64,000 nt of DNA from the NCBI GenBank assembly GCA_038065715.1, contig JBBTQL010000004.1:35693-99692 (forward strand), given 5' to 3'. The stretch's first letter is position 1, and every line of letters starts with the position of its first letter. Of the stretch, positions 11,620-64,000 are shown one piece after another. The DNA is from Patescibacteria group bacterium (GTDB taxonomy: Bacteria > Patescibacteriota > Minisyncoccia > Minisyncoccales > Staskawiczbacteraceae). The position numbers and the translations under genes are program-made. The notes beneath the pieces were generated by a model. The model searched no databases, was not told the origin of the DNA, and saw only the letters and a program-made list of their open reading frames with translations.

Positions 11620-12513
11620 ATGCCAGAGCTTCCAGAAGTAGAAACAACGGTGCGCGGTTTAAATTCAAAGGTCCTAAAAAGGGCCTTTGTTGATGTGTGG
11701 TCAGATTGGGAAAGAATAATTAAAAAACCAGACAATTTTGAAGTTTTTAAAAAAAATATAAAAGGTAAAAAAATAGAAAAAATATGGCGCCGCGCTAAAA
11801 ATATTATTTTTGATTTATCTGAAGAAAGTTCTCTTTTAATCCACCAAAAAATGACAGGCCATCTTTTGCATGGAACATGGAACATAAAACATGAAACATG
11901 GACGCCGGCTGAAAAAGGTCCATTGAATGACCCGATGAATCGTTTTATTCATTTAATATTTTTTTTAGACAATGGAAAAATGCTCGCTTTGTCTGATGCA
12001 AGAAAATTTGCCAAAGTTGAATTATGGAAAACAGAAGAATTATTAAAAGAATTTGATAATTTAGGGCCAGAACCGCTGGACAAAAATTTTACTTTTGAAA
12101 AGTTTAAAGAAAGATTGTTGCGGCAAAACCCGCCTTCGCCAAGGCTTCGGCGGGGCAAAGTAAAACAGGTTTTAATGAATCCAGAAATAATTGCAGGCAT
12201 TGGAAATATTTATTCTTCAGAGGCATTGTGGCATGCAAAAATACATCCAGAAAAAGAAATCCAAAAATTAAATGGCAAAGAACTAAAAAATATTTATAAT
12301 TCTATTAAAAAAGTTTTAGAGTTGGGGGTGAAATTGGGAGGAGAAAGTTTCTCAGACTACAGAAAACCAGACGGCAGCAAAGGAAATTTTGACACAGAAA
12401 GAAGGGCTTATAAAAGGGAGGGGCAAAAATGCCATAGATGCGGGACAAAAATAAAAAGAATAAAATTTGGCGGCAGAAGCGCATTTTTTTGCCCCCACTG
12501 CCAAAAACTATGA
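11620..12513 (+). CDS. mutM: Formamidopyrimidine-DNA glycosylase (Fpg/MutM)
   Basis: MPELPEVETTVRGL N-terminus with catalytic Pro2/Glu3. C-terminal zinc finger CHRCGTKIKRIKFGGRSAFFCPHCQ. GC insert at 12129-12155. Confidence 0.85.
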   Translation: MPELPEVETTVRGLNSKVLKRAFVDVWSDWERIIKKPDNFEVFKKNIKGKKIEKIWRRAKNIIFDLSEESSLLIHQKMTGHLLHGTWNIKHETWTPAEKGPLNDPMNRFIHLIFFLDNGKMLALSDARKFAKVELWKTEELLKEFDNLGPEPLDKNFTFEKFKERLLRQNPPSPRLRRGKVKQVLMNPEIIAGIGNIYSSEALWHAKIHPEKEIQKLNGKELKNIYNSIKKVLELGVKLGGESFSDYRKPDGSKGNFDTERRAYKREGQKCHRCGTKIKRIKFGGRSAFFCPHCQKL

Positions 12514-19034: not shown

Positions 19035-21083
19035 TTAAGGTGAAGGGTCAATAGCTGGTGGATTATTTATTAAATCTCTAATTTCTGCCGCTCTTTCAAA
19101 GTCTAAATTTTTAACGGCTATTTTCATTTCTTTTTCCAGTAATTTCCTGTCGTGTACTGCCCAAAATTCTTCTGAAACAACTTCTTTTTTTGAAAAACCC
19201 CAATCGCGTATGTCTTTTATTATTGCTTTTGGATTTATTTTATTTTTTTTATTGTAAGCTATTTGTATTTTTCTTCTTCTGTTTATTTCGTCAATGGCTG
19301 ACTGCATAGAAAAAGTAGTTTTGTCTGCATATAAAATAACGCGCCCCTGAAGGTGCCTTGCGGCCCTGCCCATTGTTTGTATTAAGGTTGTTTTATTTCT
19401 TAAAAAACCTTCTTTGTCAGCGTCTAAAATTGCAACCAATGAAACTTCGGGCAGATCAATCCCCTCTCTTAGAAGATTTATTCCAACTAAAACATCGTAT
19501 TTTCCCTCTCTTAAATCTTTTAAAATTTTAGGCCTTTCCATTGTTTTTATTTCAGAATGCAGATATTGGGTTTTGATTCCTCTTTCAATTAAATAATCAG
19601 AAATTTCTTCTGCCAATCTTTTTGTTAAAGTTACAACTAAAACCCTATGTTTTTTAGCAGTTTCTTTTTTAATTTCTTTTATTAAGTCTTTAATTTGATT
19701 CTCGGTTTTTTTGATTTCAATTGATGGTTCTAATAATCCGGTTGGCCTTATAAGCTGTTCAACAATATTTTTGCCTGATTTGTGTTTTTCATAATCGGCT
19801 GGAGTTGCTGAAACATAAATTGTCTGCCCGCCTGCAACGGCTATGCCGTAGGCATTGCGGGCAGGCTTTTGCCTTTTTTCAAATTCTGCAAAAGTTAAAG
19901 GCCTGTTATCAACTGCAGAGGGCAAACGAAATCCAAAATCAATTAAAGTTTCTTTTCTTATTTTATCTTGAACCGACATAGCGCGAATTTGCGGAATTGA
20001 AATATGCGACTCATCAATAAAAATTAACGACCCTTTAGGATTGAAGTAATTAAAATAATCAACCAAAGAAAATGGAGCTTCGCCATGTTTTCTAAATTCC
20101 AAATGCCTTGAATAGTTTTCTATTCCATGGCAAAAGCCAACCTCTTGCATCATCTCTACGTCATAATTTGTTCTTTGCCCTAATCTTTCTGCTTCCAGTA
20201 ATTTTTTTTGTTCATTTAATTTTTTTAGCTGTTCGTGCAATTCTAATTTTATATTTTCTATGGCTATATTTATTTTGTCTTTTGGAGCCACCCAAAAAGT
20301 TGCGGGGAATAGACATAAATTTGAAATTTGAAATTTGAAATTTGAAATTTCGATATTTTTATCGTTAGTTTTTTTTCTGTAAATTTTTTTTATAATATCA
20401 TTGCCAAATTCAATTCTAATAATTTCTTCGCCTGTTACTAAAAATATATCTATAATATCTCCCCTGACACGAAAAGTGGCTGGCTTAAAATCCCAGCCCG
20501 CATTGCTACGCGAAGCGTTGCTGGCGGGAATATCATTTCTTTTATATTGCAAAGCTATAAGATGTGAAATAAATTCTTTGCGTTTTATTTTTTGCCCGGG
20601 GTTTATATCCAAAGAAACATTTTGATAGTTTTCAGGCGAGCCAATATTATAAATGCACGACACAGAAGCCACTACAATTACATCTTTACGCGACAGAACA
20701 TCTTGAACTGCCGAATGCCTTAACCTGTCAATTTCTTCATTTATTTTTGCATCCTTTTCTATATATGTGTCTGATTGCGGGATATAGGCTTCGGGCTGGT
20801 AATAATCATAATAAGAAACAAAGTAATGCACGGCGTTGTTTGGAAAAAATTCTTTAAATTCCTGGTAGAGCTGGGCAGCTAAAGTTTTGTTTGGAGAAAT
20901 AACTAAAGTAGGTTTTTGGATTTTTTGTATAACATTAGCTAATGTGAAAGTTTTGCCCGAGCCAGTAACGCCTAAAAGCACCTGGTCTTTTACGCCATGT
21001 TTGAGATTATTAGTCAGTTCTCTTATTGCTCGTGGCTGATCTCCGGTAGCTGAGAATTTAGATTTTAATTTAAAGTTGGTCAT
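19035..21083 (-). CDS. uvrB: Excinuclease ABC subunit B UvrB
   Basis: Helicase motifs GVTGSGKT and DESH. C-terminal UVR domain. 682 aa. Heptamer array at 20317-20351 is in-frame (NFKFQISN). Confidence 0.9.
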   Translation of the reverse strand: MTNFKLKSKFSATGDQPRAIRELTNNLKHGVKDQVLLGVTGSGKTFTLANVIQKIQKPTLVISPNKTLAAQLYQEFKEFFPNNAVHYFVSYYDYYQPEAYIPQSDTYIEKDAKINEEIDRLRHSAVQDVLSRKDVIVVASVSCIYNIGSPENYQNVSLDINPGQKIKRKEFISHLIALQYKRNDIPASNASRSNAGWDFKPATFRVRGDIIDIFLVTGEEIIRIEFGNDIIKKIYRKKTNDKNIEISNFKFQISNLCLFPATFWVAPKDKINIAIENIKLELHEQLKKLNEQKKLLEAERLGQRTNYDVEMMQEVGFCHGIENYSRHLEFRKHGEAPFSLVDYFNYFNPKGSLIFIDESHISIPQIRAMSVQDKIRKETLIDFGFRLPSAVDNRPLTFAEFEKRQKPARNAYGIAVAGGQTIYVSATPADYEKHKSGKNIVEQLIRPTGLLEPSIEIKKTENQIKDLIKEIKKETAKKHRVLVVTLTKRLAEEISDYLIERGIKTQYLHSEIKTMERPKILKDLREGKYDVLVGINLLREGIDLPEVSLVAILDADKEGFLRNKTTLIQTMGRAARHLQGRVILYADKTTFSMQSAIDEINRRRKIQIAYNKKNKINPKAIIKDIRDWGFSKKEVVSEEFWAVHDRKLLEKEMKIAVKNLDFERAAEIRDLINNPPAIDPSP

Positions 21084-22770: not shown

Positions 22771-24039
22771 GTGTTAGATTGGGTAAATATGAGGATAAAA
22801 GAAGCAGTTAAAAAAATATTAGGCAGAAATTTGTTGGGTTTTTATCATTATGGCATGGCTTTTTTGGGAGCTGTGATTTTTGGTTTTCCATCTAAAAATT
22901 TAACTGTTATAGGGGTTACAGGCACCAGCGGTAAATCAACTACTTCTGATTTTATCACAAGAATTTTAGAAGAACCCTTCGACGGGGCCCAGGGCAGGTC
23001 TGGCAATAAGGTGGCTTCAATTTCAACAATAAGATTTAAAATTGCAGAAAAAGAATGGGAAAATAAATATAAAATGACAATGCCCGGCCGTTTTGTTATT
23101 CAAAAGTTTTTAAGGCAGGCAAAAAAAGCAGGATGCAAATTTGTGGTTTTAGAAGTTACTTCGCAAGGCATTGAACAATATCGCCATAAATTTATAAATT
23201 TTGATACAGCTGTTTTTACTAATTTGTCGCCAGAGCATATTGAAAGCCATGGCAGTTTTGAAAATTACAGAAACGCAAAACTAAAACTATTTCGAGCAAC
23301 AAAAAACATCCATATTATAAATACTGATGACGCAAATTCAAAATATTTTTGGAATATTCCGGCAAAACAAAAAATTGGATTTTCAGCCAAAGATGCGCAA
23401 AACGCTAATTTAAAATTAAATTTAATTGGAGACTTTAATATTTTAAACGCCTTAGCGGCAATTTCTGCGGCAAAGGCATATGGCATTGATTTTAGCATTT
23501 GTAAAAGGGCGCTGGAAAAGGCCAAAGGAATTTCTGGCAGAATGGAAGTGATTCAAAAAGAGCCATTCAAAGTTATTGTTGACTATGCTCATACTCCAGA
23601 ACAACTCGAAAGTGTCTATAAGGCACTTTCTCAAAACCCAAAACCTCAAACTCCAAACCCCAAACTTATTTGTGTGCTTGGAAGTTGCGGCGGGGGAAGG
23701 GATAAATGGAAAAGGACTGTTTTAGGAGAAATTGCAAATAAATATTGCGACAAAATATTTATAACCAATGAAGATCCATATGATGAAAACCCCAACCAGA
23801 TTTTATCTGAAATAAAATCTGGAATTATCAATTCTCAATTTCCAATTTCCAATTTATATGAAATTTTAGACCGTAAAGAGGCAATTAAAACTGCAATAAA
23901 ATTAGCAAAATCAGATGATATTGTTATAATCACTGGCAAGGGTTCAGAATCCTGGATGTGCATAGCAAACGGTAAAAAAATCCCCTGGGACGACAGGCAA
24001 ATCGCTAAAGATGCGTTGGGGCTCCAAACCTTGACATAG
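22771..24039 (+). CDS. Mur ligase family protein (MurE/MurF-like central and C-terminal domains)
   Basis: P-loop VIGVTGTSGKSTT. DYAHTPEQLESVY. N-terminal TM helix. Three in-frame repeat inserts (22975-23005; 23634-23665; 23829-23856). Confidence 0.7.
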   Translation: MLDWVNMRIKEAVKKILGRNLLGFYHYGMAFLGAVIFGFPSKNLTVIGVTGTSGKSTTSDFITRILEEPFDGAQGRSGNKVASISTIRFKIAEKEWENKYKMTMPGRFVIQKFLRQAKKAGCKFVVLEVTSQGIEQYRHKFINFDTAVFTNLSPEHIESHGSFENYRNAKLKLFRATKNIHIINTDDANSKYFWNIPAKQKIGFSAKDAQNANLKLNLIGDFNILNALAAISAAKAYGIDFSICKRALEKAKGISGRMEVIQKEPFKVIVDYAHTPEQLESVYKALSQNPKPQTPNPKLICVLGSCGGGRDKWKRTVLGEIANKYCDKIFITNEDPYDENPNQILSEIKSGIINSQFPISNLYEILDRKEAIKTAIKLAKSDDIVIITGKGSESWMCIANGKKIPWDDRQIAKDALGLQTLT

Positions 24040-25339: not shown

Positions 25340-25699
25340 TCATTTCTCTCCTTGCTTAGGAGAGTTTTGTTTAATAATTTGTCCCGACCAACCACCGAGC
25401 ATTTTGCCAATTTCATCTAGTTTCAATGATAGAGCAATATATTTTTTGTTATCCAATGATTTTGTTTCCCAAAGAATCATTAAAAATATTTTTAACGTAT
25501 CGACCTTTCTAATTGCTAAACGTACATAGGACAATTTTTCTGATTGCCCAAGAAAACTTGCAGTCACTATTGCCTCTATTGCTTCAACAAAAAGTTTATC
25601 AATTTTTTCACCAAGAGAATATTTATGTATTTTTGGTATAATTAAATAGTGTTGGTACCAAAAAAGATAAGCTTCTTTCAACTTTTGCAAAACAGGCAA
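25340..25699 (-). CDS. avd: DGR accessory variability determinant Avd-A (TTG start)
   Basis: 120 aa. ...KYSLGEKIDKLFVEAIEAIVTASF...KLDEIGKMLGGWSGQIIKQ matches Avd four-helix-bundle proteins (compare Bordetella bAvd ...EVGRILGSWIARVNRK). Starts at TTG 25697-25699 just downstream of the C10 tract, as in copy B. The ORF track's longer start (25834) runs through the homopolymer. Confidence 0.7.
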   Translation of the reverse strand: MPVLQKLKEAYLFWYQHYLIIPKIHKYSLGEKIDKLFVEAIEAIVTASFLGQSEKLSYVRLAIRKVDTLKIFLMILWETKSLDNKKYIALSLKLDEIGKMLGGWSGQIIKQNSPKQGEK

Positions 25700-25705
25700 C
25701 AGTCT

Positions 25706-25715
25706 GGGGGGGGGG
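25706..25715. repeat. Homopolymeric G10 (C10 on the avd strand) in the avd/RT divergent intergenic region
   Basis: agtctGGGGGGGGGGattaaaag. The equivalent position in DGR-B has G7. Confidence 0.9.
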
Positions 25716-25739
25716 ATTAAAAGCTGAGTTATTTTGATT

Positions 25740-26726
25740 ATGAAAATTACTTTGCAACATAAATACGAAGACATCATAAGCGTTGAGAATATTTTGGAAG
25801 CATGGCAAGAGTTTCTTCTCGGCAAAAGAAACAAGCCCGATGTTCAAGAATTTTCTCTCTGTCTGATGAATAATGTTTTTAATTTGCACAACGACTTATC
25901 CAATCATACCTACAAACACGGAGGCTATCAACAATTTAAAATTAACGACCCAAAGCCAAGAACAATCCACAAAGCCAGCGTAAAAGACAGATTATTGCAC
26001 CACGCAGTATATCGTATATTATACCCGTTTTTTGATAAAAAGTTTATTGCAGACTCTTTCTCTTGCAGAAACAACAAAGGCACTCATAAAGCATTAAACA
26101 AATTCAGGGAGTTCAGCTATATTGTTTCCAAAAACAACACAAACACCTGCTGGATTTTAAAATGCGACATAAAAAAGTTTTTTGCCAGCGTTGATCAGCA
26201 GATACTAATTAAAATTTTAGAAAAATATATTTCAGAAAAAGATATTATCAACTTTCTAAAAGAAATAATTTTTGGTTTTAAACCCAATGGTTTGCCTCTC
26301 GGTAATTTGACTTCCCAGTTGTTCGCAAATGTTTATCTGAATGAATTTGACCAGTTTGTAAAACACAAATTGAAAGTAAAATACTATATTAGGTATGCCG
26401 ATGACTTCGTAATTTTATCAGAGAACAAAAATTATTTAAAAAACATAATTCCAGAGCTAAAATATTATTTAAAAAACAATTTAAAACTGGAAATTCATCC
26501 AAATAAAATTTTTATTAAAACATTGAATTCTGGCGTTGATTTTTTAGGCTGGATTAATTTTACAGATCATAGAGTTTTAAGGACAAAAACTAAAAACAGA
26601 ATATTAAAGAGAATAAAAAATAATTCAAGTATTGAAACATTAAATTCTTATTCGGGTTTGTTAAAACATGGAAATATGAACAAAATGATTAAGAAATTAT
26701 TTAAGGAAACGGAGATTGCTTTTTAA
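25740..26726 (+). CDS. DGR reverse transcriptase A
   Basis: RT motifs including GLPLGNLTSQLFANVYLNEFD (DGR-type motif 4) and YIRYADDFV (YxDD). 329 aa. Nearly identical to the partial RT at 63686. Confidence 0.85.
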   Translation: MKITLQHKYEDIISVENILEAWQEFLLGKRNKPDVQEFSLCLMNNVFNLHNDLSNHTYKHGGYQQFKINDPKPRTIHKASVKDRLLHHAVYRILYPFFDKKFIADSFSCRNNKGTHKALNKFREFSYIVSKNNTNTCWILKCDIKKFFASVDQQILIKILEKYISEKDIINFLKEIIFGFKPNGLPLGNLTSQLFANVYLNEFDQFVKHKLKVKYYIRYADDFVILSENKNYLKNIIPELKYYLKNNLKLEIHPNKIFIKTLNSGVDFLGWINFTDHRVLRTKTKNRILKRIKNNSSIETLNSYSGLLKHGNMNKMIKKLFKETEIAF

Positions 26727-38951: not shown

Positions 38952-39101
38952 TGCCGTCCCCGGTCAGATTCGTCTGATCGAGGGCTTTTTTATTGTTTTT
39001 TTGTCCGTGTGCGGCTTTTTCACTCGAGTGAAAAAGCCGCACCTTTTGAAAATTAGAAACCCGCTTCGCCCGCGAAGCGAGGCGAGTTGAAAATTGAAAA
39101 T
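38952..39101. repeat. Intergenic cluster of three GC-rich palindromes plus a (GAAAATT)2 repeat
   Basis: Hairpin 38952-38984 + T-run. Perfect 34-nt palindrome gtgcggctttttcactcgagtgaaaaagccgcac 39008-39041. ccgcttcgcccgcgaagcgagg 39061-39082. ttgaaaattgaaaatt 39086-39101. Confidence 0.5.
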
Positions 39102-39152
39102 TAGCCCATGAGCCCTTTAAATTTTAGCTAAAATAAGGTAGACTAAGAAATA

Positions 39153-39830
39153 ATGAATAAGGAAACTATAATAATTTCACTGGGTGGGTCGCTTGTAGCG
39201 CCGGGGGAAATTGATATTGGATTTTTGAAGAATTTTAAGCACGCTTTGTTAAAATACTTAAAGTTAAAGCGTTTTTTTATTATTGTAGGCGGAGGCAAAA
39301 TTTGCAGAAATTACCAAAAAACATTATCAGAATTTGGCGCAAAAGATGTTGATAAGGACTGGATAGGAATAAATGTTTCAAAATTAAACGCAGAAGTTGT
39401 AAAACAGGTTTTTTCTAAGTTTTCTTTTTCTGAAATTATTACAAACCCTACAAAAGAAATAACAACTAAAAAAGATATTGTTGTAGCGTCTGGCTGGAAA
39501 CCTGGCCGCTCTACTGATTACTGCTCCGTTGTGATGGCAAAAAAAGCCGGTATTAAGACGATTATAAACTTAACAAATATTGATTATGTTTACGATAAAG
39601 ACCCAAAACAGTTTCCTGGAGCTAAAGCCATAAAAGAAATAAGCTGGAAAGATTTTAGAAAAATTATTGGTGATAAATGGAGCCCTGGATTGTCAGCTCC
39701 CTTTGACCCTGAGGCTTCAAAAATTGCAGAAAAATTAAAATTAAAGGTGGCAATGATTAACGGCAAAAATTTAGAACGCCTTGAAGATTTTTTAAACAGT
39801 AAGCCATTTATTGGAACTATTATTCAATGA
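39153..39830 (+). CDS. pyrH: Archaeal-type UMP kinase (amino-acid kinase family)
   Basis: IIISLGGSLVAP...FIIVGGGKICRNY...VASGWKPGRSTDYCSVVMA... matches the short (~225 aa) archaeal PyrH architecture. Confidence 0.6.
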   Translation: MNKETIIISLGGSLVAPGEIDIGFLKNFKHALLKYLKLKRFFIIVGGGKICRNYQKTLSEFGAKDVDKDWIGINVSKLNAEVVKQVFSKFSFSEIITNPTKEITTKKDIVVASGWKPGRSTDYCSVVMAKKAGIKTIINLTNIDYVYDKDPKQFPGAKAIKEISWKDFRKIIGDKWSPGLSAPFDPEASKIAEKLKLKVAMINGKNLERLEDFLNSKPFIGTIIQ

Positions 39831-41482
39831 TAAAAGAAGAAATAAAAAAAATAGTGGAAAACTCAATTAAAAACCTGCAAAAACAGGGCGCATTTTTAAA
39901 ATTAAAAATGCCAGAAATTTTAATTGAGCGGCCTAAAGAAAAAATACGCGGTGACTATTCAACCAACATTGCCTTTGTAATTGGAAAAGATGTTTTGAAA
40001 AATCCATTTGAAACGGCATTGCTTTTGAAAACAGAAATTGTCTCGCTTTGCGAGATCTCGCGCAGCGAGAAAAAACAAAAATCTGTAATAGAAAAAGTTG
40101 AGGTAGTGGGAGGGTTTATTAATTTTTTTGTTGCTGACGATTATTTTAAAAATCAGCTGCAAATTATTTTAAAACAAAAAAACAAATTTGGAGATTTAAA
40201 ACTTGGTAAAAGTCAAAAAGTAAACATAGAATTTATTTCTGCAAATCCAACAGGGCCGTTAACTTTAGGAAACGGCAGAGGAGGATTTTGTGGCGATGTT
40301 TTGGCTAATGTTTTAGAAAAAGCAGGATATAAAGTTGAAAGAGAATATTATATTAACAATACCGGAGCTCAAATTAAAAAACTTGGGCATTCTGTAATTG
40401 GAGATGCAGAAGCTGTTTACAAAGGAAAATATATTATTGATTTAAGAAACAAAGTTAAGGGAGATGACCCCGAGAAAGTTGGAGAAAAATCGGCAAAAAT
40501 TATTTTAGAAAAAATGATAAAGCCGTCTGTAAAAAAAATGGGAATTAAATTTGACACATGGTTTTCAGAAAAAACTCTCTATAAAAATAAAGAAGTAGAT
40601 AAAACAATACAAGAATTGGCTAAAAAAGGGTTCACCTATGAAAGCGAAGACGCTGTGTGGTTTAAATCTAAAGAATTGGGCGATGACAAAGACAGGGTTT
40701 TGGTGAGAGCCGACGGAATTAAAACATATTTTGCTTCAGATATTGCTTATTTTAAAAATAAATTTAAAAGAGGGTTTGGTAAACTTATTATGTTTTTGGG
40801 AGCCGACCACTATGGATATGTTCCGAGGCTAAAAGCTGCCTCGCTTGCTTTTGGTTTTAAAAAAGACAGTATTGATGCTATTGTTATGCAGTTGGTGCGG
40901 CTTTATGAAAAAGGCAAAGAAGTAAGAATGGCAAAAAGGACTGGTATTTATGTAACAATAGATGAGTTAATTGGCGAGGTTAGTTTGGATGTTGCCAGAT
41001 TTTTCTTTTTAATGATAAGCCCTAATACCCACATGAATTTTAATTTGGATTTAGCAAAAGAAAAATCAGAGAAAAATCCGGTTTTTAAAGTGCAATATGC
41101 GCATGCCCGAATTTGCTCAATTTTCCGAAAATTTGGAAATTTCAAATTTTCCCGATTTCATCGAGGATCCTCAATGGCAAAGCCATCGGGACAAATTTCA
41201 AATTTAAAATTATTAAATGAGCCGAGCGAGTTAGGGTTAATTAGAGAATTAATTAAACTTCCAGAAATTATTGAAGAGATAGCTAAAGATTATCAAGTTC
41301 AAAGACTACCGCAATACGCAATGGATTTAACTGATGCATTCCATAGATTTTATGAAAACTGTAAAGTCCTGAGCGAAGTCGAAGGATTGCGTGATGCCCG
41401 CTTGTCTCTTGTTATGGCAACAAAAATTGTTTTAAAAAATACATTAGACTTAATGGGAATATCTGCTCCTGAAAAAATGTGA
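39827..41482 (+). CDS. argS: Arginyl-tRNA synthetase
   Basis: ISANPTGPLTLGNGRGGFCGDVLANVLEKAGYKV class I signature. C-terminal anticodon-binding DALR domain. Composite heptamer + palindrome insertion at 41129-41210 is in-frame. Confidence 0.9.
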   Translation: MIKEEIKKIVENSIKNLQKQGAFLKLKMPEILIERPKEKIRGDYSTNIAFVIGKDVLKNPFETALLLKTEIVSLCEISRSEKKQKSVIEKVEVVGGFINFFVADDYFKNQLQIILKQKNKFGDLKLGKSQKVNIEFISANPTGPLTLGNGRGGFCGDVLANVLEKAGYKVEREYYINNTGAQIKKLGHSVIGDAEAVYKGKYIIDLRNKVKGDDPEKVGEKSAKIILEKMIKPSVKKMGIKFDTWFSEKTLYKNKEVDKTIQELAKKGFTYESEDAVWFKSKELGDDKDRVLVRADGIKTYFASDIAYFKNKFKRGFGKLIMFLGADHYGYVPRLKAASLAFGFKKDSIDAIVMQLVRLYEKGKEVRMAKRTGIYVTIDELIGEVSLDVARFFFLMISPNTHMNFNLDLAKEKSEKNPVFKVQYAHARICSIFRKFGNFKFSRFHRGSSMAKPSGQISNLKLLNEPSELGLIRELIKLPEIIEEIAKDYQVQRLPQYAMDLTDAFHRFYENCKVLSEVEGLRDARLSLVMATKIVLKNTLDLMGISAPEKM

Positions 41483-59467: not shown

Positions 59468-62014
59468 ATGAATATGGCAAAATATAATCCTCAAAAAATT
59501 GAGAAGAAATGGCAAGAGGCTTGGTATAAATCAAGCATTTTTAAAGCTAAAAACGGGTCTAAAAATAAGAAATTTTACCTTTTAGTGGAGTTTCCTTATC
59601 CTTCGGGAGACGGGCTTCATGTCGGCCATTGCCGAAGCTATACTGCCTTAGATATTATTGCCAGAAAAAAAAGAATGCAGGGATTTAATGTTTTATTCCC
59701 AATGGGCTGGGACGCTTTTGGATTGCCAACTGAAAATTATGCCATAAAAAAGGGAGTACACCCGTCTGTTGTGACAAAAAAGAATACAGATAACTTTAGG
59801 CGGCAGATGAAAAGTTTGGGGCTTTCTTTTGACTGGAGCCGAGAAATAAATACCACAGACCCAAAATATTATAAATGGACGCAGTGGATTTTTTTGCAGT
59901 TATTTAAAAATAACTTGGCTTATAAAGATAAAATTGCAATCAACTGGTGCCCTAAAGATAAAATTGGATTGGCAAATGAAGAAGTGATAAATGGCAAATG
60001 CGAAAGATGCGGCGCAAAAGTTGAAAAAAGAGATAAAGAGCAATGGATGATAAAAATTACAAAATATGCCGACAGATTAATTGAAGATTTAAATTTAGTT
60101 GATTATTTAGAAAAAATAAAAATACAGCAGAAAGATTGGATAGGCGAGTCACATGGAGCGTTGATAAAATTTTCGTTAGAAGGAAGCGAAGAATTCATAG
60201 AAGTTTTTACAACCAGAATAGACACAATATTTTCTGGCACGTTTTTAATTTTATCTCCAGGACACAATTTTATAGATAAATATAAAAATAAAATTGAAAA
60301 CATTGATGAAGTTTTAAAATATAGAGAAACCGCAAAAAATACTTCTGATATAGATAGAACTAATCAAGATAAAGATATTACAGGAGTGGAATTAAAAGGA
60401 ATTACAGTAAAAAATCCTGCCACAAATGAAGAAATGCCAGTTTGGACAGCTGATTTTGTTTTAGAGCAATACGGAACAGGAGTCGTTTTTGCTGATGCCC
60501 ATGATAAAAGAGATTTTAAAATGGCAAAAAAATATGGGATACCTTTGCGAACTTCAATAAAACCAGAAAATGAACTATCGGCGCAAAAAGCAAAAAATTT
60601 GGAAGAATGTTTTGAGGGCGAAGGCGCTCTTTATAATTCTATGCATTTTGACGGCTTAACTTCTTCTGAAGCCCGACCTAAAATAATTTCTTGGTTAAGG
60701 GAAAAAGGATATGCGGAAAACAAAATAAGCTATAAGCTTCGAGATTGGGTTTTTTCGCGCCAGCATTATTGGGGCGAGCCAATACCAATGATTTTTTGCG
60801 TAAAATGCGGTTGGCAGGCTGTTTTAGAAAAAAATCTGCCCGTTGAATTGCCTAAGGTAAAAAAATATCAGCCAACAGATACAGGCGAATCTCCTCTTTC
60901 TGCTATTGAAAAATGGGTAAATGTAAAATGTCCAAAATGCAAAGGACCGGCAAAAAGAGAAACAGACACAATGCCTAATTGGGCAGGTTCAAACTGGTAT
61001 TACTTGGCATATACTATGCCAAAAATTTCAAATTTCAAATTTCAAATTTCAAATTCTGCGAAAGAATTTTCGCAGTGGATGCCAGTTGACTGGTATAATG
61101 GCGGAATGGAGCACACAACTTTGCATTTATTGTATTCAAGATTTATTTTTAAATTTTTATGGGATATTGGAGCTGTTCCAAAAATAATTGGGGCAGAACC
61201 ATATAAAAAAAGAACTTCGCATGGAATGATTTTAGGCGAAGGGGGAATTAAAATGTCAAAGTCAAAGGGAAATGTAATAAATCCAGATTCAGTTGTGAAA
61301 CAATATGGAGCCGACACCTTAAGAGTTTACGAAATGTTTATCGGGCCTTTTGAGCAAATGATTCCTTGGGATATAAAGGGGGTTGTTGGTTCGCGCAGGT
61401 TTTTAGAAAAAATTTACAACTTAGTTTTGAAGAAGGCAATTCCGGCAAAAATCCCGACGGTCTCGCCGTCGAGGACCCGCGACGAAGTCGGGGCAGAAGA
61501 AAATTTTAAAAAACTTTTGCATAAAACAATAAAAAAGGTTGGTGACGATATTGAGGCAATGAAATTTAACACAGCAGTGAGCTCTTTAATGGAATTTGTA
61601 AATGCATGGAGCATTGCTGAAAATAGTTTAGATAAACCAGCCTCCGATAAAGGCTACGGCTTGGCGAAGAAAGATTTGCAAGAATTTTTAAAGATTTTGT
61701 CGCCTTTTGCCCCGCATTTGTCAGAAGAGCTTTGGCAAAGAGCTGGATTTAAAGGTTTGTGCTGCGCTCAAAAATGGCCTAAGTATGACGAAAAATTAAT
61801 TGAAGAAAAAAACATATTGCTTATTGTGCAAATTAACGGTAAAGTTAGAGATAAAATAGAAGTTAACGCAGGCATTACTCAAAAACAAGCTGAAGAAATA
61901 GTTTTAAAATTAGAAAAAATTAAAAACCGTATAACTAATATTAAAGAAGTGGAAAAAGTTGTTTTTGTGCCAGGTAAGTTAATAAATTTTGTGACTATTG
62001 ACAAGGATAAGTAA
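59468..62014 (+). CDS. leuS: Leucyl-tRNA synthetase
   Basis: HVGHCRSYTALDIIARKKRMQGFNVLFPMGWDAFGLP (HIGH region). KMSKSKGN. 848 aa. Heptamer array + hairpin at 61023-61077 and palindrome at 61453-61494 are in-frame. Confidence 0.9.
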   Translation: MNMAKYNPQKIEKKWQEAWYKSSIFKAKNGSKNKKFYLLVEFPYPSGDGLHVGHCRSYTALDIIARKKRMQGFNVLFPMGWDAFGLPTENYAIKKGVHPSVVTKKNTDNFRRQMKSLGLSFDWSREINTTDPKYYKWTQWIFLQLFKNNLAYKDKIAINWCPKDKIGLANEEVINGKCERCGAKVEKRDKEQWMIKITKYADRLIEDLNLVDYLEKIKIQQKDWIGESHGALIKFSLEGSEEFIEVFTTRIDTIFSGTFLILSPGHNFIDKYKNKIENIDEVLKYRETAKNTSDIDRTNQDKDITGVELKGITVKNPATNEEMPVWTADFVLEQYGTGVVFADAHDKRDFKMAKKYGIPLRTSIKPENELSAQKAKNLEECFEGEGALYNSMHFDGLTSSEARPKIISWLREKGYAENKISYKLRDWVFSRQHYWGEPIPMIFCVKCGWQAVLEKNLPVELPKVKKYQPTDTGESPLSAIEKWVNVKCPKCKGPAKRETDTMPNWAGSNWYYLAYTMPKISNFKFQISNSAKEFSQWMPVDWYNGGMEHTTLHLLYSRFIFKFLWDIGAVPKIIGAEPYKKRTSHGMILGEGGIKMSKSKGNVINPDSVVKQYGADTLRVYEMFIGPFEQMIPWDIKGVVGSRRFLEKIYNLVLKKAIPAKIPTVSPSRTRDEVGAEENFKKLLHKTIKKVGDDIEAMKFNTAVSSLMEFVNAWSIAENSLDKPASDKGYGLAKKDLQEFLKILSPFAPHLSEELWQRAGFKGLCCAQKWPKYDEKLIEEKNILLIVQINGKVRDKIEVNAGITQKQAEEIVLKLEKIKNRITNIKEVEKVVFVPGKLINFVTIDKDK

Positions 62015-63164: not shown

Positions 63165-63274
63165 TCTGGGCTGTGAATGCGAACTGGAACTCTAACTACG
63201 GTTACTGGAATGTCGAGGCTAACTCGGTTGAGAATCCGAACAGGTGGAACGATAGCAACCAGATTCTCTCCCGC
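63165..63274 (+). repeat. DGR-B template repeat (TR)
   Basis: AAC/AAT-rich (…AACTGGAACTCTAACTACGGTTACTGGAATGTCGAGGCTAACTCG…). Encodes LWAVNANWNSNYGYWNVEANSVENPNRWNDSNQ in the VR frame. Confidence 0.8.
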
Positions 63275-63642
63275 TACTGTTTTCTTTCTTCCGCTTTTAT
63301 CGCGGAAGTTTTGCTTATTATTCCTTTTTTCCAGCCACCGATTATCTTACCAATGCCTTCTATCTCAGCGCCAAGCGAGATATATTGTTTATTAGAAACG
63401 AGTTTTGTTTCCCATAAAAGCTGAAAGAAAAAACGCAACGAATCAATTTTGTCCGATGTCGCTTCAAGCAAAACAAGTTTTTTATTTATTGGCGTATACG
63501 TAGCTTTTCTTAATAACTCAAGAAGATCTAAAAATAAAATATCTACTTTAGTCCCGATTCCGAACCGCGCGATTCGTTCAATATTGCGATGCACTTCCAT
63601 CCACTGTTTATATATCAATTTGGATTTTTGCAAAACTGGCAA
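63274..63642 (-). CDS. avd: DGR accessory variability determinant Avd-B (TTG start)
   Basis: 122 aa. ...LGAEIEGIGKIIGGWKKGIISK C-terminus. Co-linear with Avd-A. Stop codon overlaps the last 2 nt of TR-B. TTG start 6 nt from the C7 tract. Confidence 0.7.
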   Translation of the reverse strand: MPVLQKSKLIYKQWMEVHRNIERIARFGIGTKVDILFLDLLELLRKATYTPINKKLVLLEATSDKIDSLRFFFQLLWETKLVSNKQYISLGAEIEGIGKIIGGWKKGIISKTSAIKAEERKQ

Positions 63643-63648
63643 CAGTCT

Positions 63649-63655
63649 GGGGGGG
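63649..63655. repeat. Homopolymeric G7 in the avd-B/RT-B divergent intergenic region
   Basis: agtctGGGGGGGattagaag. Homologous position to the G10 tract in DGR-A. Confidence 0.9.
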
Positions 63656-63685
63656 ATTAGAAGAATAACTATTTATATTTTGATT

Positions 63686-64000
63686 ATGAAAATTGTTTTG
63701 AAACATAAATATGAATATTTAATTAGCGTTAATAATTTATTGGAAGCGTGGACAGAATTTATCAAGGGGAAGCGCAACAAAAGCGATGTTCAGATTTTTT
63801 CATTTCATTTAATGGATAATATTTTACAACTTCATTGTGATTTAAAAAATGGCACATATAAGCATGGAGGCTATCAACAATTTAAAATCAACGACCCAAA
63901 ACCAAGGATAATTCACAAAGCCAGCGTAAAAGACAGATTATTGCACCACGCAGTATATCGTATATTATACCCGTTTTTTGATAAAAAGTTCATTGCAGAC
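63686..64000 (+). CDS. DGR reverse transcriptase B (5' part; continues beyond the window)
   Basis: MKIVLKHKYEYLISVNNLLEAWTEFIKGKRNK...GGYQQFKINDPKPRIIHKASVKDRLLHHAVYRILYPFFDKKFIAD. The last ~130 nt are ~95% identical at the DNA level to RT-A 25920-26050. Confidence 0.85.
   Translation, partial: MKIVLKHKYEYLISVNNLLEAWTEFIKGKRNKSDVQIFSFHLMDNILQLHCDLKNGTYKHGGYQQFKINDPKPRIIHKASVKDRLLHHAVYRILYPFFDKKFIAD

What the first reader, a model, noticed from the sequence alone, without database searches (positions are those of the whole stretch)
20317..20351. Tandem AAATTTC/G heptamer arrays embedded in-frame in uvrB, leuS and argS, producing identical NFKFQISN peptides
(aaatttg)4aaatttc on the top strand inside uvrB (minus-strand gene) and (aaatttc)4-5 inside leuS (61023-61055, plus-strand gene) are the same sequence in the same orientation relative to their genes. 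Both read N-F-K-F-Q-I-S-N. argS has aaatttggaaatttcaaatttt immediately flanking its GC palindrome (41129-41150 and 41193-41210), i.e. a composite heptamer-palindrome-heptamer element. The Mur ligase carries a caattt-c/ccaattt variant (23829-23856) and a ccaaa-type pentamer run (23634-23665). An intergenic copy is at 39086-39101. A 7-nt unit inside ORFs is a slippage hazard (a ±1 unit change shifts the frame), so these may act as contingency switches in essential genes, or be relics of the same mobile element family as the GC palindromes.
Basis: seen in the sequence. Interest (0 to 1): 0.6.

Follow-up and report, generated by a model that had tools for sequence, protein, structure and literature searches.

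The report
In-frame 7-base repeats in housekeeping genes
Short tandem runs of the 7-base unit AAATTTC sit in-frame inside essential genes of this groundwater bacterium; they look like tolerated repetitive DNA in flexible protein loops, not genetic on/off switches.

Summary
Perfect (AAATTTC)n arrays of 33-34 nt lie inside uvrB and leuS. A degenerate array in argS is split by a 42-nt palindrome. Chance predicts 0.21 such matches in the window; 12 were found.

The "identical peptide, same orientation" is forced by arithmetic. Seven is coprime to three, so all three frames read the same cycle, KFQISNF. The reverse strand carries TGA in every frame.

The organism is a Staskawiczbacteria-like CPR bacterium from Hainich groundwater. 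Orthologues carry other heptamer arrays at the same loops: AGTTACA, CAATTTC and AATTTTC were read in DNA or in a window parallel, and AGTCAAA and AAAATCC were inferred from peptides. mutM and a Mur ligase in the window hold further in-frame heptamer arrays.

More than 119 loci across many phyla carry (AAATTTC)4. Most start in the same register, with a length mode of 33 nt, and 76 of 121 lie in long sense ORFs.

Two assemblies that differ by SNPs have identical arrays. A change of 1 or 2 units would truncate LeuRS or UvrB.

Best reading: coding heptanucleotide microsatellites, a known but unexplained class. They persist in permissive loops and are not contingency switches. The argS palindrome is a separate, later insertion. 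The fixed register and 33-nt size remain unexplained.

The parts
20317..20351 (-). Perfect (AAATTTC)n array in uvrB: 33-nt canonical core plus adjacent matching bases. It encodes (E)ISNFKFQISN(L), UvrB residues 246-255.
   Evidence: (TRF period 7, 4.9 copies, 100% match). Identical in two independent assemblies.
19035..21083 (-). Host gene uvrB. The array lies in the variable stretch just before the conserved FPA(T/S)(F/H)(W/F)V motif, at the end of the UvrB interaction domain.
   Evidence: Pfam. Alignment to PDB 2fdc. The AF2 model shows a low-confidence loop at 242-245, next to the array.
61023..61055 (+). Perfect canonical 33-nt array, (AAATTTC)4AAATT, in leuS. It encodes (K)ISNFKFQISN, LeuRS residues 520-529.
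   Evidence: (period 7, 4.7 copies, 100% match). Identical in two assemblies.
59468..62014 (+). Host gene leuS. The array occupies the variable loop between WYYL(A/R)Y and W(M/L)PVD.YxGGxEH.
   Evidence: Pfam. Orthologue alignment. PDB 3ziu and 2v0c alignments.
61056..61075 (+). Small palindrome CTGCGAAA-GAAT-TTTCGCAG immediately 3' of the leuS array. A similar CTGCGG...CGCAG or CTGAGGCG...CGCCTCAG palindrome follows the array in the UppP-like genes of L030, L084 and L096.
   Evidence: DNA fold of the region is -12.6 kcal/mol, z = -3.1.
41129..41149 (+). Left half of an old, degenerate AAATTTC array in argS (AAATTTGGAAATTTCAAATTT). It encodes (K)FGNFKF.
41150..41191 (+). 42-nt in-frame palindromic element with terminal inverted repeats TCCCGAT...ATCGGGA. 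It encodes SRFHRGSSMAKPSG and sits between T and C of an array unit. It is absent from the sister genome and all other relatives.
   Evidence: A related element lies at the same register in the Berkelbacteria leuS array (L007).
41192..41212 (+). Right half of the argS array (CAAATTTCAAATTTAAAATTA). It encodes QISNLKL.
23829..23856 (+). (CAATTTC)2.9 in-frame array in a Mur ligase gene. It encodes NSQFPISN. The region differs from the sister genome's, which is 6 aa shorter here.
23634..23665 (+). Degenerate AAACCCC-type heptamer array (period 7, not 5) in the same Mur ligase. It encodes QNPKPQTPNPK.
11869..11902 (+). (CATGGAA)4.9 degenerate in-frame heptamer array in mutM/fpg. It encodes HGTWNIKHETW.

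Best explanation
The arrays are coding heptanucleotide microsatellites: tandem 7-nt DNA repeats living inside variable surface loops of housekeeping proteins.

Shown:
- They are DNA-level repeats, not conserved protein motifs.
- They survive in ORFs because of the unit's arithmetic and composition. Seven is coprime to three, so all frames read the same stop-free peptide, KFQISNF. The reverse strand has TGA in every frame, so only one orientation is viable.
- They occupy loops that already vary in length and sequence.
- The same loops carry arrays of different heptamer units in different lineages.

Inferred:
- The arrays arise and are kept homogeneous in place, by replication slippage and out-of-register gene conversion.
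- Selection removes every length change that is not a multiple of 21 nt. This leaves arrays whose length is frozen while the unit sequence turns over.
- They have no regulatory role. They are neutral or mildly selfish passengers.

The 42-nt GC palindrome in argS is a different, discrete insertion element that landed inside a pre-existing array.
For: 1. DNA repeat, beyond chance.

2. Frame and orientation logic follows directly from the sequence. Among 76 in-ORF copies in other genomes all three codon phases are used (38, 24 and 14), each giving the same cyclic peptide.

3. Period 7 is a genome habit.
- In 949 kb of window plus loci, perfect arrays of other units with at least 3 copies number 64 for period 7. 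Periods 5, 6, 8, 9, 10 and 11 give 2, 4, 4, 1, 1 and 0.
- TRF finds 283 period-7 arrays, against at most 79 for any other period.
- This matches the published over-representation of heptamer repeats in prokaryotes (PMC4679880 and PMC4692102, which cite Mrazek 2007).

4. Unit turnover at the same site.
- UvrB: the sister genome has (AGTTACA)n, read in DNA. Other lineages show NYKLQTT and SYQLQAT peptides.
- LeuRS: ISNFQFPIS, matching the CAATTTC reading seen in the window's Mur ligase, and KSQKSKVKSQK, back-translated as AGTCAAA.
- ArgRS: (AATTTTC)4, read in DNA, plus KIQNPKS and KSKVKSQ peptides.

5. The arrays occupy existing loops rather than adding 11 aa. Net length differences to relatives are -2 to +6 aa.

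6. Length is stable.
- Arrays are identical in two assemblies that differ by SNPs.
- Orthologous UppP-like genes at 76-91% DNA identity keep the same 33/33 array with the same boundaries.

7. A change of 1 or 2 units gives truncated LeuRS or UvrB.

8. A composition-matched control unit, (AATATTC)4, is at least as common as (AAATTTC)4 in viral contigs: 14 hits against 5. The unit is therefore not uniquely privileged.

9. The flanks of 11% of arrays are themselves strongly 7-periodic, against 0.8% of controls.
Against: Simple slippage does not predict the regularity of the bacterial copies.
- 81 of 121 arrays begin exactly at AAATTTC. About one in seven per register would be expected.
- 76 have exactly 4 full units, and the length mode is 33 nt.
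- The flanks show no decaying AAATTTC periodicity.

Other-unit heptamer arrays also have a length hump at about 29-34 nt rather than a monotonic decay. This hints at a preferred size of about 4.7 units that I cannot explain.

Arrays recur at the same site in orthologues only 44% identical: LeuRS in Berkelbacteria and in this genome.

No slippage or conversion event was observed directly. Homogenisation without length change is an inference.
Confidence: 0.6

Rival explanations
1. A discrete 33-nt 'frame-blind' mini-element, (AAATTTC)4AAATT, is copied or written into genomes by an unknown trans-acting mechanism. Candidates are copy-paste of a tiny element, or templated repeat synthesis at breaks. 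It survives wherever it lands in a permissive loop or leader peptide. Its length (11 codons) and its stop-free sense strand make it harmless in any codon phase.
For: - Fixed 5' register in 81 of 121 arrays. Exactly 4 full units in 76. Length mode of 33 nt, sharper in ORFs (27 of 76).
- Sharp boundaries with no decaying AAATTTC periodicity.
- All three codon phases are used.
- The host genomes span many phyla and local GC from 0.31 to 0.71.
- Several copies occur per genome in some MAGs.
- The hosts are diverse housekeeping genes, confirmed as TsaD (twice), MurD, RlmN, HemW, RecJ, PcrA and GatA.
- 28 of 76 copies lie within 30 codons of the N-terminus, including pilin and signal-peptide leaders.
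- The same sites are hit in distant lineages.
Against: - No clean 33-nt presence/absence was seen. Net length differences to orthologues are -2 to +6 aa, not +11.
- The same loops carry arrays of other units.
- There are no target-site duplications, terminal inverted repeats or conserved flanks.
- In viral contigs AAATTTC arrays have random registers and lengths, and a control unit is more frequent.
- No candidate enzyme was identified.
- The literature search found nothing.
Confidence: 0.2
2. The arrays are contingency loci. Slippage by one unit switches uvrB, leuS or argS off and on in a subpopulation. An example would be a mutator or persister state through loss of UvrB.
For: A 7-nt unit does shift the frame, and +/-1 or 2 units truncate the proteins. 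Heptanucleotide repeats do drive phase variation elsewhere, at the H. influenzae HMW1A/2A promoters (PMC8262952).
Against: - No length difference between two assemblies that differ by SNPs, and identical proteins on 5 contigs each.
- Array boundaries are unchanged across orthologues with 24% DNA divergence.
- There are only about 4.7 units.
- The hosts are essential aminoacyl-tRNA synthetases, for which 'off' means a null allele.
- The same arrays occur in dozens of unrelated housekeeping genes.
- No frameshifted orthologues were seen among 360 homologues.
Confidence: 0.04
3. The array has a selected function of its own. Options: (a) the peptide KISNFKFQISN acts as a structural module. (b) The DNA or RNA acts as a near-palindrome of five AAATTT hexamers, serving as a hairpin or protein-binding site. 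(c) It acts as a run of -1 frameshift 'slippery' heptamers; A-AAT-TTC fits X-XXY-YYZ.
For: - Arrays stay perfect while flanks diverge.
- The boundaries coincide with whole AAATTT palindromic hexamers.
- The unit fits the slippery-site pattern. This is by inspection and my own knowledge, not a test.
- The alternating hydrophobic/polar pattern FKFQI would suit an amphipathic strand.
Against: - The DNA hairpin is weak: -3.5 kcal/mol, z = -1.2.
- AF2 gives no confident structure for the segment.
- Relatives replace the peptide with unrelated heptamer-encoded peptides at the same site.
- The host proteins and positions have nothing in common.
- Concerted evolution plus my selection of perfect arrays can explain the apparent conservation. 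There are 7 effective sites, not 33.
Confidence: 0.08
4. The arrays are an assembly or sequencing artefact.
For: Most copies come from metagenome-assembled genomes.
Against: - At 33 nt the arrays are shorter than a read and shorter than the final assembly k-mers.
- Reading frames and orthology continue across them.
- They recur at orthologous sites in MAGs from different studies and assemblers.
- They also occur in isolate genomes: Desulfonema magnum, Chryseotalea and Aequorivita.
Confidence: 0.01

Closest known systems
Prokaryotic heptanucleotide tandem repeats. Examples: cyanobacterial STRR (Mazel 1990); TAACTGA direct repeats of Beggiatoaceae, cyanobacteria and Bacteroidetes (MacGregor 2015, PMC4679880); GGGAATC and GGGGAYT repeats of Xanthomonas and Nostoc (Rehm 2015, PMC4692102); the general excess of 7-nt SSRs (Mrazek 2007, as cited in those papers).
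   Same: - Head-to-tail 7-nt units with a few copies per array.
- Many arrays per genome and a strong excess of period 7 over other periods.
- The same unit is shared by phylogenetically distant genomes, with no known mechanism.
- One orientation is blocked in ORFs by stop codons. MacGregor made the same point for TAACTGA, whose reverse orientation reads LSVISYQ.
   Different: - Those families are described as mainly intergenic, often upstream of start codons. Here the arrays sit inside essential genes and are translated.
- The unit AAATTTC was not found in the searchable literature.
- The bacterial copies show a preferred register and a 33-nt size.
- The same protein loops carry different units in different lineages.
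Rickettsia palindromic elements (RPE): selfish repeats inserted in-frame in protein-coding genes. This comparison rests on my own knowledge; PMC1779305 turned up but I did not read it.
   Same: - Repetitive DNA is translated as extra peptide in housekeeping proteins at structurally permissive sites.
- The frame is kept and no stop codon is introduced.
- There are many host genes.
   Different: - RPEs are about 100-150 bp palindromic units with recognisable consensus ends. The arrays here are 33-nt tandem heptamers with no terminal repeats.
- The arrays occupy existing loops rather than adding a fixed-size insert.
- The 42-nt TCCCGAT...ATCGGGA element in argS is the part that behaves like an RPE or MITE.
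Contingency loci: phase-variable simple sequence repeats, for example the 7-bp repeats in the H. influenzae hmw1A/hmw2A promoters (PMC8262952).
   Same: A tandem short repeat whose unit length is not a multiple of 3. Slippage would change expression.
   Different: Known loci have long, strain-variable tracts in surface, virulence or restriction-modification genes or their promoters. Here the tracts are short (about 4.7 units) and invariant between strains and across diverged orthologues. They lie in essential genes.
PARCELs: palindromic amphipathic repeat coding elements of Mollicutes and other microbes (PMC2996958, seen; only the start of its abstract was read).
   Same: Repetitive coding DNA whose sequence symmetry lets it be read productively in more than one way. 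It is distributed across distant taxa.
   Different: PARCELs are longer repeats that build surface repeat proteins. They are not 7-nt microsatellites embedded in housekeeping enzymes. I did not test membership.

Membership tests
Prokaryotic heptanucleotide SSRs (STRR / TAACTGA-like direct repeats) | Head-to-tail repeats of a 7-nt unit, at least 3 copies, high identity | tested here: met
   TRF gives period 7 with 4.9 and 4.7 copies at 100% match.
Prokaryotic heptanucleotide SSRs (STRR / TAACTGA-like direct repeats) | Period 7 over-represented relative to neighbouring periods in the same genomes | tested here: met
   64 perfect period-7 arrays against 0-4 for periods 5, 6 and 8-11. TRF gives 283 period-7 arrays against at most 79 for any other period. 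The sample is biased toward loci chosen for an AAATTTC array.
Prokaryotic heptanucleotide SSRs (STRR / TAACTGA-like direct repeats) | Same unit dispersed at several loci of one genome and shared by distant taxa | tested here: met
   Three loci in the 64-kb window. More than 119 loci across many phyla, with several per MAG.
Prokaryotic heptanucleotide SSRs (STRR / TAACTGA-like direct repeats) | Predominantly intergenic location, as described for STRR, TAACTGA and GGGAATC | tested here: not met
   All window copies are in ORFs. 76 of 121 copies elsewhere lie in sense ORFs of at least 150 aa.
Contingency locus (phase-variable SSR) | Repeat number differs between closely related strains or within a population | tested here: not met
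   Arrays are identical in assemblies ERZ1292632 and ERZ1292635, which differ by 1-2 SNPs. The same proteins occur on 5 contigs. This is consensus level only; reads were not available.
Contingency locus (phase-variable SSR) | Located in or upstream of surface, virulence or restriction-modification genes where on/off switching is viable | tested here: not met
   The hosts are uvrB, leuS, argS, mutM and a Mur ligase. Frameshift alleles are truncations.
Contingency locus (phase-variable SSR) | Out-of-frame alleles found among orthologues | tested here: not met
   None among 120 UvrB, 120 LeuRS and 120 ArgRS homologues. Gene callers would under-report broken genes, so this test is weak.
In-frame selfish palindromic element (RPE / MITE-like) | Discrete unit with defined ends or terminal inverted repeats | tested here: not met
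   The heptamer arrays have no TIR, no TSD and no conserved flanks, although their register and length are regular. The 42-nt argS element does have 7-nt TIRs, TCCCGAT/ATCGGGA.
In-frame selfish palindromic element (RPE / MITE-like) | Clean presence/absence between orthologues, with a gap equal to the element length | tested here: inconclusive
   Met for the 42-nt palindrome: a 14-aa gap in all 118 other ArgRS, plus sister-genome DNA. Not met for the arrays, whose net differences are -2 to +6 aa. The nearest relatives are only about 81-84% identical in protein, so recent events cannot be seen.
In-frame selfish palindromic element (RPE / MITE-like) | Insert keeps the frame and adds no stop codon | tested here: met
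   Translations. The palindrome is 42 nt and the leuS array is 33 nt.
-1 programmed ribosomal frameshift site | Slippery heptamer X-XXY-YYZ, plus a downstream stimulatory structure and a functional alternative-frame product | not tested
   A-AAT-TTC fits the pattern by inspection only. Shifted frames end within about 25-60 codons, so no alternative product is evident.

The most novel reading that the evidence does not exclude
The bacterial copies are not ordinary slippage products. They are the output of an unrecognised process that writes or pastes a fixed block of about 33 nt, made of 4.7 heptamers, into DNA. The AAATTTC version starts at a defined register. The block is harmless in any codon phase, so it accumulates in loops and leader peptides of essential genes across CPR, Nitrospirota, Acidobacteriota, Planctomycetota and other phyla. 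It also serves as a landing pad for small GC palindromes such as TCCCGAT...ATCGGGA, which was found twice at the same register in different genes and classes.
Probability: 0.15. Interest if true: 0.8.

Novelty: new member of a known kind. Interest (0 to 1): 0.45.

Why it matters
This shows that non-triplet microsatellites can live for a long time inside essential genes, provided the unit is stop-free in all frames on one strand.

For annotators, the recurring NFKFQISN-type peptides in CPR proteins are translated repeat DNA, not motifs or domains.

The long-noted but unexplained excess of heptanucleotide repeats in prokaryotes becomes more tractable here. CPR housekeeping loops (UvrB, LeuRS, ArgRS) act as natural, orthology-anchored recorders of how heptamer arrays are born, homogenised, change unit and decay.

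If the fixed 33-nt register reflects a dedicated mechanism, that would be a new kind of very small genome-modifying process.

Tried and rejected
1. Metagenome scan for the array-palindrome junction AAATTTCAAATTTTCCCGAT. It returned 31 hits. These were unrelated gene starts and one IS-like repeat end, plus the same Berkelbacteria leuS. There is no evidence that the composite is a recurrent unit.

2. Search for further TCCCGAT...ATCGGGA elements. There is only the argS copy in the window. The two hits in other loci were unrelated chance matches.

3. General association between arrays and GC hairpins. 12 of 234 flanks against 3.2% of controls. This is not convincing.

4. Hairpin idea, treating the array as five AAATTT palindromes. 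-3.5 kcal/mol, z = -1.2, which is weak.

5. Decaying array edges. The flanks show no AAATTTC periodicity.

6. Viral-contig scans as a specificity control. Numbers are small, but AAATTTC is not enriched over AATATTC and shows no fixed register there.

7. AF2 model of UvrB. It is only good enough to say the segment is a low-confidence loop; no fold search was run.

8. A protein-database search with the bare peptide was not attempted. An 11-residue match cannot reach significance against 5.8 billion sequences.

9. Literature string search for the repeat or the peptide found nothing relevant.

10. Assembly artefact was rejected, for the reasons given under the rival explanations.
Full report
**1. 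What is in the sequence**

The + strand at 20317-20351 reads (AAATTTG)4AAATTTC. Tandem Repeats Finder gives period 7, 4.9 copies and 100% match. The segment lies in a 682-aa ORF on the minus strand (19035-21083), which Pfam identifies as UvrB. On the coding strand the repeat is (AAATTTC)n.

Positions 61023-61055 read (AAATTTC)4AAATT, 33 nt at 100% match. They lie inside an 848-aa LeuRS gene (59468-62014). Both proteins contain ISNFKFQISN: UvrB residues 246-255 and LeuRS residues 520-529.

In ArgRS (39827-41482) the protein reads FGNFKF-SRFHRGSSMAKPSG-QISNLKL. The DNA is AAATTTGGAAATTTCAAATTT | TCCCGAT...ATCGGGA (42 nt, 41150-41191) | CAAATTTCAAATTTAAAATTA.

A 21-mer of three units with up to 3 mismatches matches only at these three loci. 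There are 12 overlapping matches, against 0.21 expected from dinucleotide shuffles.

Two details in the finding need correcting.
- The run at 23634-23665 in the Mur ligase has period 7 (AAACCCC-like), not 5.
- The "intergenic copy" at 39086-39101 is (TTGAAAA)2.3, a different unit with a weak score.

A further in-frame heptamer array was missed: (CATGGAA)4.9 at 11869-11902 in mutM.

**2. Why the peptide and orientation are identical**

This follows from arithmetic, not biology. Seven and three are coprime, so a heptamer array cycles through all three frames every 21 nt. Every frame therefore reads the same cyclic heptapeptide. For AAATTTC the codons are AAA TTT CAA ATT TCA AAT TTC, giving K-F-Q-I-S-N-F, with no stop codon.

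The complementary orientation, (GAAATTT)n, reads GAA ATT TGA and so has a stop in every frame. Any copy that persists inside a gene must be in this orientation and must give this peptide.

Consistent with this, 76 in-ORF copies found in other genomes use all three codon phases (38, 24 and 14). All read as rotations of the same peptide.

**3. Organism and source**

The best homologues of all three proteins are from Candidatus Staskawiczbacteria, in the Parcubacteria (Patescibacteria). The exact proteins occur on contigs from the Hainich groundwater well H43 metagenomes.

Two independent assemblies differ from the window by 1-2 SNPs over 4-5 kb. Both carry exactly the same arrays. The identical UvrB and LeuRS proteins are on 5 contigs each.

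**4. What orthologues show**

*UvrB.* The array lies in the variable stretch just before the conserved FPATFWV motif. Against Bacillus caldotenax UvrB (PDB 2fdc) it aligns to DALTGEVLGEREH, with a net +5 aa. An AlphaFold model gives a low-confidence loop there.

Many Staskawiczbacteria orthologues carry other 7-residue-periodic peptides at this exact site: NYKLQTTNYKL, SYKLQVTSYKL, SYQLQATSYKL and NFKIQISNFRL. The closest relative (84% identity) was checked in DNA. It reads AACTACA AGTTACA AGTTACA AGCTATA, a heptamer array with a different unit. On a neighbour-joining tree, carriers of each type are scattered.

*LeuRS.* The common loop is DPKNNKKLADEKLLKY. Ours is MPKISNFKFQISNSAKEFSQ. Other lineages have ISNFQFPIS (the CAATTTC reading) or KSQKSKVKSQK (back-translated as AGTCAAA). 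Against Mycoplasma mobile LeuRS (PDB 3ziu), our loop is 2 aa shorter. The array therefore occupies an existing loop.

A Berkelbacteria LeuRS that is only 44% identical has an AAATTTC array at the same site, and a second one elsewhere in the gene.

*ArgRS.* The common loop K(I/V)KNPKSKNLELL has the same length as GNFKFQISNFKLL in P0274 and P0277. Other lineages have NFQFSIFNFQSN or 7-periodic peptides such as KIQNPKSKIQN and KSKVKSQKSKV. DNA confirms a degenerate, uninterrupted AAATTTC array in P0277 and (AATTTTC)4 in P0273.

*Mur ligase.* Both array regions differ from the sister genome's sequence at those sites, by +2 and +6 aa.

These loops are long-lived heptamer-repeat sites. The unit sequence turns over while loop length stays within a narrow range.

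**5. The argS composite**

The sister genome reads ...AAATTTGGCAATTCCAAATTG|CAAATTTCAAATTTAAAATTA..., with no interruption. Ours has 42 nt inserted at the bar. All 118 other ArgRS sequences lack these 14 residues.

The element has 7-nt terminal inverted repeats (TCCCGAT/ATCGGGA) and is in-frame. The Berkelbacteria leuS array is interrupted at the same register, after AAATTT and before CAAATTT. The interrupting element is related: TCCCGATGTTTTAATCGAGATCTT...ATCGTCGGAA.

So the palindrome is a separate small insertion element, and it has landed in AAATTTC arrays at least twice. More generally, arrays are not significantly associated with GC hairpins: 5.1% of flanks against 3.2% of controls. A metagenome scan for the junction found no further cases.

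**6. The wider picture**

These come from many CPR lineages and from Nitrospirota, Nitrospinota, Planctomycetota, Acidobacteriota, Bacteroidota, Omnitrophota and others. They include isolates (Desulfonema magnum, Chryseotalea, Aequorivita) and regions with local GC up to 0.71.

Of 121 arrays, 76 lie in sense ORFs of at least 150 aa. Hosts confirmed by NCBIfam include TsaD (twice), MurD, RlmN, HemW, RecJ, PcrA and GatA. Twenty-eight arrays lie within 30 codons of the N-terminus, several in what look by eye like type IV pilin or signal-peptide leaders.

Period 7 dominates in these genomes. There are 64 perfect arrays of other units at period 7, against 0-4 for periods 5, 6 and 8-11. This fits the published excess of heptanucleotide repeats in prokaryotes and the known STRR, TAACTGA and GGGAATC families (PMC4679880, PMC4692102). 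String searches for this unit or its peptide in the paper library found nothing relevant.

**7. An unexplained regularity**

- 81 of 121 arrays begin exactly at AAATTTC.
- 76 have exactly four full units.
- The 3' remainder peaks at AAATT, giving a length mode of 33 nt. The 33-nt peak is sharper in ORFs (27 of 76).
- The window's leuS copy is exactly this 33-mer. The uvrB copy is the same 33-mer plus a T.

The phase of my search pattern cannot produce this result. A 33-nt array in six of the seven registers would still have been found.

The flanks show no decaying AAATTTC periodicity. However, 11% of flanks are strongly 7-periodic with other units, against 0.8% of controls. Heptamer arrays of other units also show a length hump at about 29-34 nt. 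In the window, all arrays with at least 4.5 copies are 32-34 nt long.

In viral contigs, AAATTTC arrays (5) have random registers and lengths. A composition-matched control, (AATATTC)4, is more frequent at 14 hits. The unit is therefore not generally privileged.

Three orthologous UppP-like genes at 76-91% DNA identity keep a 33/33 identical array with identical boundaries. With homogenisation, the effective number of independent sites is 7 rather than 33. I also selected for perfect arrays. Together these make the observation compatible with concerted evolution. It also shows that array length is stable over long times.

**8. Interpretation**

I consider it most likely (0.6) that these are coding heptanucleotide microsatellites. 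They would be generated and homogenised in place by slippage or out-of-register conversion. They sit in loops and leaders that tolerate almost any sequence. Selection would filter them so that only frame-preserving states and the stop-free orientation survive.

They are not contingency switches.
- A change of 1 or 2 units truncates LeuRS at 535-577 of 848 aa and UvrB at 268-292 of 682 aa.
- The host genes are essential.
- The arrays do not vary between strains or across diverged orthologues.

The main rival (0.2) is a discrete 33-nt element or a repeat-writing process. The fixed register and size favour it. The absence of clean 33-nt indels, the presence of other units at the same sites and the lack of defined ends argue against it.

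A function for the peptide, hairpin or slippery heptamer is possible but unsupported (0.08). The DNA hairpin is weak, at -3.5 kcal/mol with z = -1.2.

**9. Limits**

- No read-level data were available, so low-frequency length variants cannot be excluded.
- The nearest relatives are about 81-84% identical in protein, so recent gain or loss events could not be observed.
- The mechanism of homogenisation is inferred, not shown.

Noticed in passing
window 25340-26726 and 63274-64000: Two cassettes resembling diversity-generating retroelements. The first pairs a bAvd-like gene (25340-25834, minus strand) with a reverse transcriptase (25734-26726). The second has a bAvd-like gene at 63274-63642, followed beyond the window end by an RT gene that is 79% identical in DNA to the first (seen in L121).
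   Followed up: partly
window 20493-20528 and 19827-19865 (uvrB); 12127-12168 (mutM); 22975-23004 (Mur ligase): GC-rich in-frame insertions, palindrome-like as judged by eye, in housekeeping genes. In UvrB they encode PASNASRSNAGW and PARNAYGIAVAGG; both are absent from PDB UvrB and fall in low-pLDDT segments of the model. mutM has NPPSPRLRRGKVKQ and the Mur ligase has PFDGAQGRSG. Orthologues carry related inserts such as LPRSP..GSLAMT and PSRRDDETIQ at the UvrB heptamer site.
   Followed up: partly
window 39009-39042 and 39050-39105: A perfect 34-nt intergenic palindrome, GTGCGGCTTTTTCACTC/GAGTGAAAAAGCCGCAC. It is followed by a second GC palindrome (cgcttcgcccgcgaagcg) and then (TTGAAAA)2.3.
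   Followed up: no
L007 (Berkelbacteria leuS), reverse strand: One LeuRS gene carries two AAATTTC arrays. One is perfect and lies after APEHK in the editing-domain region. The other is at the same loop as in the window and is interrupted by a TCCCGAT... element.
   Followed up: yes
L004, L083, L100, L112, L120 (one Saccharibacteria MAG, SRP067234_co1_36): Five array copies in a single MAG share longer identical flanks on the right. On the left lie GC palindromes of the cattcccgcgaaggcgggaat type. In this genome the array is part of a larger dispersed repeat.
   Followed up: no
L002, L010, L025, L041, L051, L052, L056, L066, L082 (Planctomycetota, Kuenenia, Desulfonema, Aequorivita): In GC-richer genomes, AAATTTC arrays run directly into arrays of related units (AAATCTC, GATTTCA, GAGTTTCAA, CACAAAT). 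These form long hybrid heptamer tracts of up to about 100 nt.
   Followed up: no
L030, L084, L096 (UppP-like genes), just 3' of the array: The palindrome that follows the array differs between orthologues but stays self-complementary: CTGCGGAGAAG..CCTTCGCAG against CTGAGGCG..CGCCTCAG. This suggests replacement, or maintenance of the hairpin within coding sequence.
   Followed up: no
L126, L130, L131 and other SDBS01 contigs: A repeat ending in ...GGATGGCGTAAAAATTTCAAATTTTCCCGATTTCATTCCCCAAGTGAGAAAGTTGGG lies about 72 nt from many contig ends in one metagenome. It is probably the end of an insertion sequence. It matched my junction pattern by coincidence.
   Followed up: no
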